Positions 22,231-25,250 of a DNA stretch of 64,000 nt are shown one piece after another. Both the position numbers and the translations under genes were made by a program. The notes beneath the pieces were generated by a model. That model worked only from the letters and a program-made list of their open reading frames with translations. It did not search any database and was not told the DNA's origin. Within the stretch, counting starts at the first letter, position 1. Every line of letters starts with the position of its first letter. The stretch is from positions 1 to 64,000 of IMG/VR virus record IMGVR_UViG_3300021959_004274; one strand, given 5' to 3'. The stretch is from a virus.

Positions 22231-22587
22231 CTAGTTGACAAGATAGATGACTAACAAATAATAGGTCGTAAAGTGAAATAATTGATCTACAACAGCAATC
22301 CACCACCAAACTTTGTCTTTACGTTCACAACCTAAGCCGTGTTGTACTCTATGCTTACAAAAGTCTATGTGCCAGTGTGCTATGTAGTCTAACAGTGATG
22401 CTAGTAGTGCTGTTTTAACATCAACAAATAGGAATACTAAGAAAGTACCTATTGCATGATGTAAGTAATGGCTATGACAGCCAAAGTAATTGTATTTGGC
22501 GTCTGTTTTACCCCATAATAATTGTGCTTGTAATCCAAGATCAATTATGACGTGCTTTACAAATAATAAAAATAGTATTTCAGACAT
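22231..22587 (-). CDS. Membrane protein with HxxxD motifs (DUF3307-like)
   Basis: KHVIID..LQ, HWHIDF, DQLFH. Confidence 0.7.
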   Translation of the reverse strand: MSEILFLLFVKHVIIDLGLQAQLLWGKTDAKYNYFGCHSHYLHHAIGTFLVFLFVDVKTALLASLLDYIAHWHIDFCKHRVQHGLGCERKDKVWWWIAVVDQLFHFTTYYLLVIYLVN

Positions 22588-23269
22588 TATGATGATTCTT
22601 ATAGTATTCTTCGACTCGTTGCCACCAAAGATCTCGCCACATATCAAACTCCGTGCCTTCGCTGATGAACTCTTGATATTTATAGTCTTTTGAACACATA
22701 AGAACTACACCCTTACGTATGTTGGTTCCGTATACTTCATTGTGTGCTTCTGCGTATGCGGCCAACTGTAAGAAATAGTCTTCAATCCATTCTCTTTTTT
22801 TAGGTTTGTTAGTTTGTTTAAAGTCAAGTATAGCAGGTTCGCCTTTGTGTACCCCTACAAGGTCTGTAGTACCTGCGTATATTTGTGGATGATATAAGGC
22901 AATTTCAGTACCCCAATATTCATCCACATTTTTAAGTCCTTCTTCAATTACAATTTTAGCCATGTCTAAACTTTGTTGTGCAAAAGGATTTCCTACACTT
23001 TCTTTTAGCTCTTCACCTAGCACATACTTTTCTAAATAAGTGTGCATTCGTGTTCCTCTATTGGCCGCTTCTGTAACTATTTCAGTTGCTTTGGCTTCAC
23101 CTACACTTTTACGCCAGTTTGCCAGAGCTTGTTGTTTTTCTTTTGATTTAGTTTTGTCCAATATAGTTGTAACACTTGGAACTGCGTTACCATCAGGACA
23201 TGTATATAGTCGTTTGCCGTTTACACTTTCTCTTGATAATTCTTTATAATCAAATTTGTTTGTTATCAT
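22580..23269 (-). CDS. PD-(D/E)XK exonuclease
   Basis: PSVTTIL, RGTRMH, YAGTTDL, ILDFKQ, QLAAY. Confidence 0.9.
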
Positions 23270-23589
23270 TTTACCGTAAAACTTTCGCCACAACCACATT
23301 CGCCTGTCGCATTAGGATTAATAAATTCAAAGCCTTCGTTTAGCCCTTTTTTAACATAGTCCATTTCTAGACCTTTAAGGTATGCTAGACTTTTCTCGTC
23401 TACTATTATTTTAACACCATTATTGTCAAACACCTTATCCCATTCCTCCAAAGTGTCTACAAACTCTAACACATAGGCCATGCCCGAACACCCTGTGGTT
23501 CTTACACCAACACGAAGTCCTATTGTACCTTCTCTTGAATTAATTGCTGATAGAGCTTTTGCGTGTGCTGAATCTGTCAGAGTTATCAT
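23266..23589 (-). CDS. iscA: A-type Fe-S carrier IscA
   Basis: [12 protein letters not shown]...[11 protein letters not shown]...CGCGESF. Confidence 0.92.
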
Positions 23590-23918
23590 ACTGAAAAACT
23601 TGACCCACACCCACAACTTGTAGTTGCATTTGGATTACGAATAGCAAATTGACTACCTTGTACAGATTCAGTCCAATCAACTTCTGCACCCTGTACATAT
23701 TGTGAACTCATGCTATCTATTAGAATATGTACTCCATCTTTTTCGATATCAAAGTCGTCTTCGTTTTGTTCTTCGTCTAAGGTAAAGCCGTATTGCATAC
23801 CTGAGCAACCGCCACCTTCAACAAACATTCTAACTTTCATGTTAGGATTATTTTCCTCAGCTAGAATTTCTTTTATTTTTGCTACTGCTGAATCTGTTAT
23901 TGTAATTAATTCACCCAT
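23586..23918 (-). CDS. erpA: A-type Fe-S carrier ErpA
   Basis: [11 protein letters not shown]...[14 protein letters not shown]. Confidence 0.9.
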
Positions 23919-24226
23919 CTTAGTGCAAACTCCGTTATTTTGTGTTTATCCACATAAGGATCAAACCATATTTCACTTTTAGTGCCTAGTTCGTGATCGT
24001 ACATATAATTATGTAGTCGCCATCCGTCACCTATGATATATTCTAGACCAATATCTACATCAAATGTTATTGTGCCTATATTAGTGTCTAACCAATTTAA
24101 TATAGGCACATGTAATAACATTTCTCTATTGATATATCTACGCTCTGATTGGCTAAGTTTGCTATAAACTTGTACTAGTTCTTTACTGGCTAGTAAGTTA
24201 TAGTTTAATACAAACTTATGATCCAT
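23906..24226 (-). CDS. Hypothetical protein
   Basis: 106-aa ORF overlapping both neighbours. Confidence 0.6.
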
Positions 24227-24603
24227 TCTTTGAGTTGTAATCTGCTATCGCACTCTTAATAGCATCTTCAGCGAGTACCGAGCAGTGGATTTTAACTGGA
24301 GGGAGTGCCAACTCCTCAACAATGTCGGTGTTCTTAATAGCTGTAGCCTCATCGAGGGTCTTGCCCTTGAGAAGTTCTGTGACAAGACTAGAACTAGCAA
24401 TAGCACTACCACAGCCATACGTTTTAAATTTTGCGTCCGTGATGATTCCATCATCCACCCTGATCTGTAACTTCATGACGTCTCCGTCATCCGCAAGCCG
24501 GAGCACCAACCATACCAGTGCCGACTTGCGGGTCCTCCTTATCTAATGATCCCACATTTCTGGGGTTTTCATAGTGATCTAAGACCTTGGCTGAATAGGC
24601 CAT
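24216..24603 (-). CDS. iscU: Fe-S scaffold IscU, interrupted by 7 extra nt (recoded or pseudogene)
   Basis: 24603-24490 encodes MAYSAKVLDHYENPRNVG...GMVGAPACG, then TGA. The +1 frame from 24482 encodes DVMKLQ...GCGSAIASSS...LPPVKIHC. Confidence 0.93.
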
Positions 24604-24606
24604 AAT

Positions 24607-25197
24607 CTAATCTCCTAAAATAGTTTTAATAACATTATTAGGTTGATAAGAATCCCATTTCTTTCTATTCTCCTCACCTAATATCCATTGTAGATTTTGT
24701 CTACCACCAATAATCACAGGATCTATTCCTAATTCAAACCCTTGCTTAAAAGGAATAATATGATCTAATTGATATTGGTCTTTTCTTTTACCTGTATTAT
24801 CAGGTATTGTTCCTTCTTTCTTCATAGCATACCAAGATCGATATGTTGCTTTACGACACTCTCTTTTGTATGCTGTAAATTCATCATCAACGTAATTTTT
24901 AGGACGTTGATTATTGATCTTGCCGTCCCAGTTAGGATTATTCTCTCCTAACCATCTTTTTGCTTGTTTAGGATTTTCCTTTCCTTTCCAATAACTCCGA
25001 CCTTTTTCTAAACCTTCCAAGTTCATTTTTGTTTTAACAAACTCTTTAGACATTTTCTTGCCTTTGTTCCAGGGTTCATATTCTCCTCGGTTTAAGGGAT
25101 TTTTACATTTTTGAGAGCAATAGTCTAAAAATCTAGGTCTAGTTTCGAACTCAGTTCCACAATGCTTACACTTTTTTATTATACCGTATTTTTTCAT
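24607..25197 (-). CDS. Free-standing HNH homing endonuclease-like protein
   Basis: N-terminal CxxC..YCSxxC zinc module, PWNKGKK (NUMOD-like), YQLDHIIP...NLQ....EENRKK. Start ATG 25197 lies 5 nt after TAAATA. Confidence 0.8.
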   Translation of the reverse strand: MKKYGIIKKCKHCGTEFETRPRFLDYCSQKCKNPLNRGEYEPWNKGKKMSKEFVKTKMNLEGLEKGRSYWKGKENPKQAKRWLGENNPNWDGKINNQRPKNYVDDEFTAYKRECRKATYRSWYAMKKEGTIPDNTGKRKDQYQLDHIIPFKQGFELGIDPVIIGGRQNLQWILGEENRKKWDSYQPNNVIKTILGD

Positions 25198-25250
25198 ACT
25201 AGTATTTATGTCTAGGTGCACCAACGTGTCATTTATAATACTTGAGTATT

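What the first reader, a model, noticed from the sequence alone, without database searches (positions are those of the whole stretch)
24216..24603. iscU split by GGA-UGA-C-GGA: candidate 7-nt programmed ribosomal hop (miniature gene-60-type bypass)
Seen: ATG 24603 reads a textbook IscU N-terminus up to Ala36-Cys37-Gly38 (GGA, 24492-24490). Next come TGA (24489-24487), one C, a second GGA (24485-24483), then GAC GTC ATG AAG TTA CAG. Hopping from the first GGA to the second skips exactly 7 nt and gives PACGDVMKLQ. The product is a 126-aa IscU with all three Cys and the LPPVK motif intact, and neither half shows other damage. The stop and landing codon lie in a perfect hairpin AUGACG-GAGA-CGUCAU (24490-24475) with a GNRA tetraloop. 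Established: T4 gene 60 bypassing uses matched GGA take-off and landing codons, a stop right after take-off and a tetraloop hairpin; UGA-C is the weak stop context of the prfB frameshift. Inference: this is programmed stop-hopping, possibly tying IscU output to RF2 activity. Alternatives: a +1 frameshift (giving CG-D-GDVM), re-initiation at Met41 from GGAG (split IscU), a template-switch mutation that perfected the palindrome, or an assembly error.
Basis: partly seen in the sequence, partly recalled or inferred. Interest (0 to 1): 0.95.

Follow-up and report, generated by a model that had tools for sequence, protein, structure and literature searches.

The report
Short ribosome-hop gap in phage iscU
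A jumbo phage's iron-sulfur scaffold gene (iscU) is interrupted by 7 extra bases that start with a stop codon, and about 100 related phage versions suggest ribosomes hop over this gap with help from an RNA hairpin, a miniature of the T4 gene 60 bypass linked to a selfish nuclease gene.

Summary
On the minus strand, iscU reads ...TGC GGA | TGA C GGA | GAC GTC ATG. Skipping 7 nt restores a canonical 126-aa IscU.

It is not an assembly error or a singleton. Scans found 99 distinct insert-bearing iscU contexts in 78 viral and 68 metagenome contigs, and none in 185,579 cellular genomes.

The gaps fall into at least 29 types of 6-10 nt, covering all three frames. Nearly all begin with TAG, TGA or TAA. 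All end in GGN followed by GAY GTN ATG.

Every insert allele, and almost no insert-less allele, has a 10-11-bp RNA hairpin whose 3' arm ends in the take-off codon. The hairpin shows compensatory changes at three pairs.

Both gene halves are under strong purifying selection (dN/dS about 0.1).

An HNH-like gene lies just upstream in 54 of 88 insert contexts and in 0 of 55 insert-less ones. The window's closest backbone relatives lack both the gene and the insert.

Best reading (about 0.67): a hairpin-assisted Gly-to-Gly ribosomal hop inside a homing-endonuclease cassette.

No protein-level evidence exists. This scan had already flagged the same family on another genome (e1-5790766).

The parts
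24490..24603 (-). iscU part 1: Met1 to Gly38 (take-off codon GGA at 24492-24490)
   Evidence: 38-aa ORF, NifU_N positions 1-35, E 2.7e-11. dN/dS is 0.07 for codons 1-24 across insert alleles.
24491..24531 (-). 5' RNA hairpin: 5' arm 24531-24521, 19-nt loop 24520-24502, 3' arm 24501-24491. The 3' arm ends in the GG of the take-off codon.
   Evidence: The 10-bp core is paired in 27 of 27 distinct insert rows and in 98 of 98 contexts. Three pairs show compensatory changes. Covariation is 0.275 against 0.085 for shuffles (0 of 500 as high). Insert-less alleles pair at 64.8%, the same as shuffled.
24483..24489 (-). 7-nt untranslated gap: stop TGA (24489-24487), C (24486), landing codon GGA (24485-24483)
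   Evidence: The same site carries 6-10-nt gaps of at least 29 types in relatives.
24219..24482 (-). iscU part 2: Asp39 to Ser126 (stop TAA at 24218-24216), with Cys63, Cys106 and LPPVK
   Evidence: NifU_N positions 35-124, E 3.5e-36. dN/dS is 0.08 across insert alleles.
24475..24490 (-). Present in this window but not conserved in the family.
   Evidence: it folds in the window. GACGTCAT is present in 17 of 99 contexts.
24607..25224 (-). HNH-like free-standing endonuclease gene, ending 3 nt before the iscU ATG. The iscU Shine-Dalgarno AGGAG (24616-24612) lies inside its 3' end.
   Evidence: invariant CxxC...CxxxC and DH...N...N. PF01844 sub-threshold in 15 of 27 homologues; best fold match is the Gme HNH nickase, Z 4.9; presence/absence polymorphism and mosaic identity.

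Best explanation
The 7 nt (TGA C GGA) are a non-coding gap inside a working iscU gene.

Proposed mechanism. A ribosome carrying peptidyl-tRNA-Gly on the take-off codon GGA meets a stop codon in its A site and pauses. The mRNA just behind it can refold into a 10-11-bp hairpin whose 3' arm includes the first base(s) of the take-off codon. This refolding pulls the mRNA forward and helps unpair the tRNA. The tRNA re-pairs with the next GGN, 7 nt downstream, and decoding resumes at GAC (Asp39). The product is a normal 126-aa IscU.

Origin. The gap and hairpin belong to a mobile cassette carried by the HNH-like homing endonuclease gene just upstream. The gap most likely breaks that enzyme's target in the conserved ACGD-coding DNA, which protects the carrier phage. 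The hop keeps the gene usable.

What is shown and what is inferred. Shown: the anatomy, its recurrence, the covariation, the selection signal and the association with the HNH gene. Inferred: the hop itself, its efficiency, the pulling role of the hairpin and the cleavage specificity of the endonuclease.
For: (1) Gap lengths. There are 99 distinct insert contexts and 27 types, plus 2 more outside the search pattern. Hop lengths are 6 nt (1 context), 7 (54), 8 (14), 9 (26) and 10 (4). Every one ends in GGN, and a GGN-to-GGN hop restores PACG|DVMKLQ.

(2) Coding constraint after the gap. In a scan that forced nothing between the stop and Met41, all 50 contigs had GGN GAY GTN directly before the ATG. 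Variation was confined to third codon positions, while the adjacent gap varies freely in sequence and length. Near-identical genes can differ in the gap alone (L123 against L143).

(3) Stop-first rule. In 93 of 99 contexts the gap starts with a stop codon right after take-off.

(4) The 5' hairpin. Its 10-bp core is 100% paired in the insert alleles. Pair types are CG/AU/UA/GC at one position, UA/CG/GC at another and GC/AU at a third. No shuffle of 500 reached the observed covariation. It is absent from insert-less alleles, and RNAalifold finds the same stem. An invariant U.G pair fits sense-strand RNA.

(5) Selection. dN/dS is 0.10 for the N part and 0.08 for the C part, the same as in insert-less genes. 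It is 0.07 for codons 1-24, outside the hairpin, and 0.05-0.3 within single insert types.

(6) Homing signature. HNH is present in 54 of 88 insert contexts, with 3 remnants, and in 0 of 55 insert-less ones. L005 and L006 share 95-100% nt identity with the window's upstream flank but lack both HNH and insert. L093 shares an 87-99% identical HNH on a backbone that is 55-60% identical upstream.

(7) No cellular genome of 185,579 species carries such an insert.

(8) Precedent. In T4 gene 60, a 5' stem-loop and pairing of exiting mRNA are proposed to drive forward bypassing, and the cassette is carried by the HNH gene mobA (bioRxiv 10.1101/2024.12.09.627546; 10.1101/2022.08.31.505936).
Against: No peptide, reporter, ribosome-profiling or transcript data exist, and read mapping was not possible.

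From my own knowledge of the literature, unassisted short stop-hops in E. coli constructs run at about 1% or less. A useful yield therefore depends on an untested effect of the hairpin.

At take-off the hairpin's 3' arm lies inside the ribosome, so its action is a model, not an observation.

In 27 of 99 contexts the landing codon belongs to the other Gly isoacceptor box. Six contexts (GGT TGTT GGA) have no stop after take-off.

An ATG (Met41) lies 6 nt after the landing codon, and a strict Shine-Dalgarno-like tetramer precedes it in 46 of 99 insert contexts against 8 of 58 insert-less ones. Re-initiation is therefore possible.

The C part recombines more than the N part (pS 0.43-0.7 against 0.13-0.2 within types). 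Part of its intactness could be inherited from recently invaded intact genes.

The phylogenetically paired test of HNH against insert is underpowered: 7 pairs, none opposite, median p 0.125.
Confidence: 0.67

Rival explanations
1. Split IscU by termination and re-initiation. Ribosomes terminate at the stop after Gly38 and restart at Met41, 6 nt after the second GGA. This gives a 38-aa N fragment and an 86-aa C fragment that assemble non-covalently. Asp39 and Val40 would not be made.
For: An ATG follows in every allele. A GGAG-type Shine-Dalgarno motif precedes it in the window and in 46 of 99 insert contexts, against 8 of 58 insert-less ones. Any gap length is compatible. A stop right after Gly38 is expected. 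Purifying selection on both halves also fits a two-piece protein.
Against: All 50 contigs of the unbiased scan keep GGN GAY GTN as codons, with third-position changes only, next to a freely varying gap. That is unexpected for a non-coding spacer. More than half of the contexts lack a strict Shine-Dalgarno motif. The universal landing GGN and the covarying hairpin that ends in the take-off codon have no obvious role. The break would separate the cluster ligand Cys37 from the rest of the protein and delete the conserved Asp39 (established IscU biochemistry, from my own knowledge).
Confidence: 0.17
2. Different conventional recoding events in different lineages: a +1 frameshift at GGA TGA C in this window (giving CG-D-GDVM), -1/+2 shifts for 8-nt inserts, and stop readthrough for 6- and 9-nt inserts.
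For: UGA C is a weak termination context, and stop-adjacent +1 shifts are known (prfB, antizyme; from my own knowledge). The +1 product here would still contain the CGD motif.
Against: This needs three unrelated mechanisms at one site in close relatives, some of them sister sequences with different gap lengths. GGA cannot re-pair in the +1 frame (GAU). No Shine-Dalgarno motif lies 3 nt upstream. It does not explain why every gap ends in GGN, nor why one hairpin is shared by all length classes.
Confidence: 0.05
3. The interrupted iscU is a dead gene. The insert is only a scar, or an immunity mark of the endonuclease cassette, and intact-looking halves reflect recent invasion of working genes.
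For: A few insert alleles carry further lesions: L087/L242 have TAA CTA inside LPPVK, L247 has a 1-nt deletion and L270 has TAG at Tyr61. The C part recombines often.
Against: The N part travels with the cassette, yet it has dN/dS 0.07-0.11 at saturated dS. About 95 of 99 contexts have no other lesion. The stop-first and GGN-last rules, and a hairpin kept by compensatory change, imply selection on expression.
Confidence: 0.05
4. The gap is removed at the RNA level. RNA polymerase realigns from GG to the next GG, pushed by the nascent hairpin, or the gap is removed by editing, so the mRNA is continuous.
For: The hairpin ends exactly at the repeated GG, much as a terminator hairpin lies close to the RNA 3' end.
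Against: There is no homopolymer run or U tract, and I know of no precedent for a 6-10-nt polymerase jump. A transcription-level event gives no reason for the gap to begin with an in-frame stop codon in 93 of 99 contexts.
Confidence: 0.03

Closest known systems
Phage T4 gene 60 translational bypass within the MobA (HNH) homing-endonuclease element (bioRxiv 10.1101/2022.08.31.505936; 10.1101/2024.12.09.627546)
   Same: Take-off at a Gly codon (GGA) followed at once by a stop. Landing on a Gly codon. An untranslated gap. An mRNA stem-loop 5' of take-off. Linkage to a free-standing HNH-type gene with presence/absence polymorphism and mosaic flanks. A conserved gene kept usable despite the insert.
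   Different: The gap is 6-10 nt instead of 50 (20 in one Aeromonas clade). There is no room for the take-off/A-site stem-loop or for the Shine-Dalgarno-like element 6 nt before landing. The take-off codon lies in the 3' arm of the upstream hairpin rather than the 5' arm of a downstream one. The host gene is iscU, not a topoisomerase subunit. The gene is not split by the endonuclease gene, which sits upstream of it. Landing codons are often non-identical. A nascent-peptide signal is unknown. Homology of this HNH to MobA was not tested.
Low-level stop-hopping in synthetic E. coli constructs (Weiss et al. 1987; O'Connor et al. 1989; recalled from memory and mentioned in bioRxiv 10.1101/2024.12.09.627546)
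   Same: A short hop of peptidyl-tRNA over a stop codon to a matching codon a few nucleotides downstream, so that 6-9 nt specify one amino acid.
   Different: Those hops were unstimulated, inefficient and artificial. Here the site is natural, conserved in about 100 alleles, and comes with a covarying hairpin and a mobile-element context.
Multiple bypass elements (byps) in Magnusiomyces mitochondrial mRNAs (cited in bioRxiv 10.1101/2024.12.09.627546)
   Same: Natural, mobile, non-coding inserts in conserved genes, skipped by ribosomes between matching codons.
   Different: Those are longer (tens of nt), mitochondrial and hairpin-containing inserts. There is no homing-endonuclease link of this kind.
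prfB (RF2) programmed +1 frameshift at CUU UGA C
   Same: A UGA C stop context directly after the shift codon in this window.
   Different: prfB needs a re-pairing slippery codon and a Shine-Dalgarno motif 3 nt upstream, and is always +1. Relatives of this site need 0, +1 and +2 shifts and use TAG and TAA as well as TGA.

Membership tests
Programmed translational bypassing (T4 gene 60 type) | Take-off codon and a downstream landing codon that the same peptidyl-tRNA can re-pair with | tested here: met
   GGN at both sites in all 29 types. Identical codons in 46 of 99 contexts, same isoacceptor box in 72 of 99, first two bases always GG.
Programmed translational bypassing (T4 gene 60 type) | Stop (or slow) codon in the A site directly after take-off | tested here: met
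   TGA in 52 contexts, TAG in 31, TAA in 10 of 99. Six contexts (TGTT) lack a stop.
Programmed translational bypassing (T4 gene 60 type) | Gap is non-coding: free to vary in sequence and in length, including lengths not divisible by 3, while the flanks stay coding | tested here: met
   Hop lengths 6-10 nt. The gap differs between near-identical genes. The flanking GGN GAY GTN varies only at third positions.
Programmed translational bypassing (T4 gene 60 type) | Stimulatory mRNA structure 5' of take-off | tested here: met
   A 10-11-bp hairpin with compensatory changes, specific to insert alleles. Its stimulatory effect is inferred.
Programmed translational bypassing (T4 gene 60 type) | Take-off (A-site) stem-loop with a stable tetraloop that includes the stop codon | tested here: not met
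   The window has ATGACG-GAGA-CGTCAT, but only 17 of 99 contexts can form it.
Programmed translational bypassing (T4 gene 60 type) | Nascent-peptide signal and a single polypeptide spanning the gap | not testable with these tools
   Needs mass spectrometry or reporter assays.
Homing-endonuclease cassette (MobA/gene 60-like) | Endonuclease gene present or absent between otherwise collinear genomes, with mosaic (co-converted) flanks and the insert at a conserved target | tested here: met
   L005 and L006 lack HNH and insert on a near-identical backbone. L093 shares the HNH on a divergent backbone. HNH in 54 of 88 insert contexts against 0 of 55 insert-less ones. The paired test is underpowered. 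Cleavage specificity is untested.
HNH endonuclease | Beta-beta-alpha-metal fold with the D/H-H...N...N/H motif | tested here: inconclusive
   Invariant D154-H155, N177 and N186, plus four Cys. PF01844 below cut-off in 15 of 27 members, best E 0.007. Best structural match is the Gme HNH nickase, Z 4.9, rmsd 3.5 A over 66 residues. Sequence search of PDB found nothing.
IscU / NifU_N scaffold | NifU_N domain with three Cys, Asp39 and LPPVK | tested here: met
   PF01592 covers positions 1-35 and 35-124 in the two halves. The residues are read directly.
prfB-type +1 programmed frameshift | Slippery P-site codon that re-pairs in +1, an upstream Shine-Dalgarno motif, and a fixed +1 geometry among homologues | tested here: not met
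   GGA to GAU cannot re-pair. Relatives need 0, +1 and +2 shifts.

The most novel reading that the evidence does not exclude
A minimal natural bypass module: one 5' hairpin that contains the take-off codon, a stop codon, and the next cognate-like codon 6-10 nt downstream. This module would be enough to make bacterial ribosomes hop efficiently without a gene 60-type A-site stem-loop. Homing endonucleases of aquatic jumbo phages would use such modules routinely to immunise their own target sites inside conserved genes. Unchecked notes from this scan report similar gaps in helicase, polymerase, portal, neck and exonuclease genes.
Probability: 0.45. Interest if true: 0.92.

Novelty: new variant of a known kind. 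Interest (0 to 1): 0.87.

Why it matters
At the bench, programmed bypassing in bacteria and phages rests essentially on one system, T4 gene 60.

This family offers a much simpler architecture in a different gene. It comes with about 29 natural gap variants and a hairpin with natural compensatory mutations, in effect a ready-made mutagenesis series.

It would allow a direct test of the idea that pairing of exiting mRNA drives forward ribosome movement. It would also support a general evolutionary route in which homing endonucleases protect their own genomes with untranslated gaps that ribosomes skip.

On the practical side, gene callers split or discard such genes, so phage auxiliary metabolism (here Fe-S cluster assembly) is under-annotated.

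Tried and rejected

2. Matched-codon covariation. The first scan showed GGA..GGA and GGC..GGC only. Wider scans showed many mismatched third bases, so strict matching was dropped.

3. Downstream 60-nt folding energy does not differ between insert and insert-less alleles (-6.5 against -6.9 kcal/mol).

4. The RF2 link was rejected because TAG and TAA gaps are common.

5. Alternative genetic codes cannot help, because the two halves are in different frames.

6. No tRNA gene was found in the window, so there is no evidence for a phage-encoded hopper tRNA here.

7. HNH identity. Pfam gave nothing above cut-off for the window protein. PHROGs gave only phrog_5104, of unknown function. PDB sequence searches found nothing. 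Foldseek had no hit at E <= 0.001, though HNH domains dominate the weak list.

8. Cultured phages. The GenBank phage collection holds only distant iscU-bearing records and no close relative of this locus.

9. The own genome holds no second copy of iscU or of this HNH.

10. Literature. Five full-text searches or look-ups found no report of bypassing in iscU.

11. The decoy check is consistent with hopping but not significant. A GGG one base before landing occurs only with GGC/GGT take-off and GGC landing: 16 contexts, 5 types.

Full report
**Observation.** On the minus strand the window encodes a textbook IscU N-terminus, from ATG 24603 to Gly38 (GGA, 24492-24490). It is followed by TGA (24489-24487), one C, a second GGA (24485-24483) and then GAC GTC ATG AAG... 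in the +1 frame down to a stop at 24218-24216. Pfam NifU_N matches positions 1-35 in the first piece (E 2.7e-11) and 35-124 in the second (E 3.5e-36). The genome search reports the same two pieces, with one TGA between them. Skipping the 7 nt gives a 126-aa IscU with the ACGD motif, three Cys and LPPVK. The window is part of a 92-kb IMG/VR viral record rated 25% complete, which fits a fragment of a jumbo phage.

**Recurrence.** A degenerate pattern for this junction hit 17 other iscU genes in viral contigs, with diverged synonymous sites around it. A variable-gap pattern then showed that many different short inserts occupy exactly this site.

A scan that fixed only GAPACG, a stop-like triplet and MKLQ, and nothing in between, returned 50 contigs. 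All 50 read GGN GAY GTN directly before the ATG, with variation only in third codon positions.

Complete scans with a specific pattern gave:
- 78 viral contigs (their names carry 69 different dataset numbers by my count from the table);
- 68 metagenome contigs;
- no hit in one genome from each of 185,579 bacterial and archaeal species.

Pooled and de-duplicated, these are 99 distinct 240-nt contexts and 27 take-off/gap/landing types. Hop lengths are 6 nt (1 context), 7 (54), 8 (14), 9 (26) and 10 (4). Two further types lie outside the pattern: L047 GGT TAGA GGA and L069 GGA TGACT GGA. Gaps start with TGA (52), TAG (31), TAA (10) or TGT (6). An assembly error or a private mutation is therefore excluded, although reads themselves could not be examined.

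**Why a hop.** The inserts put the downstream part in all three frames, sometimes in sister sequences (L115 TGAG-GGC against L212 TGAATTA-GGT) or in near-identical genes (L123 TAGTTA-GGT against L143 TGTT-GGA). No single frameshift or readthrough can serve the family. One rule does: peptidyl-tRNA-Gly leaves GGN and re-pairs with the next GGN. This yields PACGDVMKLQ every time.

The gap behaves as non-coding, with free sequence and length. The nine bases after it behave as codons.

Take-off and landing codons are identical in 46 of 99 contexts and fall in the same isoacceptor box in 72 of 99. Only GG is invariant.

**The hairpin.** An earlier first-stage note on this window (e1-6004568) pointed to a hairpin ending at the take-off codon, and I tested it. 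The 41 nt at 24531-24491 form an 11-bp stem with a 19-nt loop. The 3' arm is the Pro35-Ala36-Cys37 codons plus the GG of Gly38. The 71-nt stretch 24470-24540, which holds this hairpin and the local 3' hairpin, folds at -31.5 kcal/mol (z -3.6 against shuffles).

- All 31 unique insert-bearing N parts pair at 10-11 of 11 positions, with mean MFE -24.3 kcal/mol. The 57 insert-less alleles pair at 7.1 of 11 on average, not contiguously, with mean MFE -12.4.
- On 27 distinct rows the 10-bp core is 100% paired. Three pairs show changes on both sides: CG 13, AU 10, UA 3, GC 1 at one pair; UA 13, CG 8, GC 3 plus wobbles at another; GC 22, AU 2, GU 3 at the third.
- The covariation score is 0.275 against 0.085 for shuffles (0 of 500 as high). 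Slid controls pair at only 29-53%.
- The same structure on insert-less alleles pairs at 64.8%, no better than shuffled (212 of 500), with no excess covariation.
- RNAalifold finds the same stem on its own.
- An invariant U.G pair and other G.U pairs fit an RNA structure on the sense strand.
- Across all pooled contexts the core is 10 of 10 in 98 of 98.
- One insert-less allele (L027) carries the hairpin. It looks like a recombinant that lost the gap.

**Proposed mechanism (inferred).** With GGN in the P site and a stop in the A site, the 3' arm of the hairpin lies in the mRNA channel and the 5' arm has already emerged. Each base of forward mRNA movement lets another G/C-rich pair form. The last pairs compete with the codon-anticodon pairing at the take-off codon. 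Movement stops when the tRNA finds the next GGN. This matches the driver role proposed for exiting-mRNA pairing and the 5' stem-loop in T4 gene 60 (bioRxiv 10.1101/2024.12.09.627546).

**Selection.** Hop-corrected genes give dN/dS of 0.10 (N part) and 0.08 (C part) for insert alleles, against 0.09 and 0.075 for insert-less ones. Codons 1-24, outside the hairpin, give 0.07. Within single insert types dN/dS is 0.05-0.32.

Within a type the N part is much less diverged at synonymous sites (pS 0.13-0.20) than the C part (0.43-0.70). This suggests that the N part travels with the cassette and that recombination is frequent near the gap. That weakens the C-part argument, since intactness may be inherited. 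It strengthens the N-part argument: a cassette-borne segment stays IscU-like over saturated dS. Only four or five of the 99 contexts carry extra lesions.

**The endonuclease link.** The gene ending 3 nt before the iscU ATG (24607-25224) has homologues directly upstream of iscU in 54 of 88 insert contexts that have enough flank, plus 3 remnants. It has none in 55 insert-less contexts.

Insert-less loci belong to the same phage group, with the same gene order: structural protein, small ORF, iscU, iscA, exonuclease.

- L005 and L006 are 95-100% identical to the window in the upstream gene but lack both the 0.6-kb gene and the 7 nt, and their iscU is only 73-83% identical.
- L093 has a backbone only 55-60% identical upstream, but its copy of the gene is 87-99% identical, and iscU identity decays from 86% to 76%.

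This is the mosaic pattern expected of homing with co-conversion. A tree places insert and insert-less alleles interleaved, with at least 7 changes forced by well-supported branches. The phylogenetically paired test is directional but underpowered: 7 pairs, none opposite, median p 0.125.

The protein's HNH identity is likely but not proven. It has invariant DH...N...N and four Cys, sub-threshold PF01844 hits in 15 of 27 members and a best fold match to an HNH nickase at Z 4.9. There is no PDB sequence match.

**Rivals.** Termination followed by re-initiation at Met41 (a split IscU) is the serious alternative. It tolerates any gap length, and a strict Shine-Dalgarno-like motif precedes the ATG in 46 of 99 insert contexts, against 8 of 58 insert-less ones. 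It does not explain the codon-like conservation of GGN GAY GTN, the universal landing GGN or the hairpin, and it would remove Asp39. Lineage-specific frameshifts plus readthrough, a dead gene, and an RNA-level removal are each less likely, for the reasons given under rival explanations.

**Comparison and novelty.** The closest known system is the T4 gene 60 bypass inside the MobA HNH element (bioRxiv 10.1101/2022.08.31.505936).

Shared features:
- Gly take-off and landing codons;
- a stop directly after take-off;
- an upstream stem-loop;
- an HNH cassette.

Differences:
- a 6-10-nt gap instead of 50;
- no conserved take-off stem-loop;
- the take-off codon lies in the 3' arm of the upstream hairpin;
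- a different host gene;
- the endonuclease gene sits upstream of the gene rather than splitting it.

Full-text searches found no report of bypassing in iscU. Within this scan, the same iscU family was already flagged and followed up on another genome (e1-5790766). Unchecked notes describe similar endonuclease-linked short gaps in other phage genes. I did not test those.

**Verdict.** The hop reading is supported by strong comparative evidence (confidence about 0.67) but lacks any protein-level proof. I class it as a new variant of a known kind, of high interest.

Noticed in passing
L181:2197-3495 (minus strand; IMGVR_UViG_3300005077_000572): The same iscU that carries a 10-nt gap (GGT TAGAACC GGC) also has an intein-like insert of about 345 aa at Cys63 (TYG|C...HN|CGS). 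Pfam gives a weak Hint hit (E 1.9e-4) and splits NifU_N into two stretches. Phage iscU seems to be a hotspot for selfish elements.
   Followed up: partly
L087 and L242 (iscU, LPPVK motif): A second in-frame 6-nt insert, CCG [TAA CTA] GTT AAG, inside LPPVK, in alleles that also have the 7-nt Gly38 gap. There is no matching Pro landing codon. It could be a second recoding site or a nonsense lesion.
   Followed up: partly
L247 and L270: Insert-bearing iscU alleles with extra damage. L247 has a 1-nt deletion in an A run after LPPVK. L270 has TAG in place of Tyr61, close to a contig end.
   Followed up: no
L027 (IMGVR_UViG_3300013126_000167): An insert-less iscU that still has the perfect 11-bp hairpin. 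Its 41-nt hairpin segment is identical to that of the insert-bearing L077. It looks like a recombinant or a precise loss of the gap.
   Followed up: partly
L108, L125, L143, L162, L228 (type GGT TGTT GGA): A 7-nt gap variant without a stop codon after take-off. The 0 frame runs on for 12 codons. It has the full hairpin, and L143 is nearly identical to a TAGTTA-type gene (L123). How, or whether, it is expressed is unexplained.
   Followed up: partly
window 23266-24226 (minus strand): iscU is followed by a 106-aa ORF with no family match (23906-24226; found only in the window, L005 and L006), two divergent IscA-type carriers (23586-23918 and 23266-23616, both PF01521) and a PD-(D/E)XK exonuclease (22580-23299).
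   Followed up: no
other genomes (notes e1-5690228, e1-5929525, e1-5660468, e1-5885913, e1-5956807): Unchecked notes of this scan describe endonuclease-linked 4-11-nt stop-first gaps in phage helicase, DNA polymerase, exonuclease, portal and neck genes. If real, the iscU case is one instance of a wider phenomenon.
   Followed up: no
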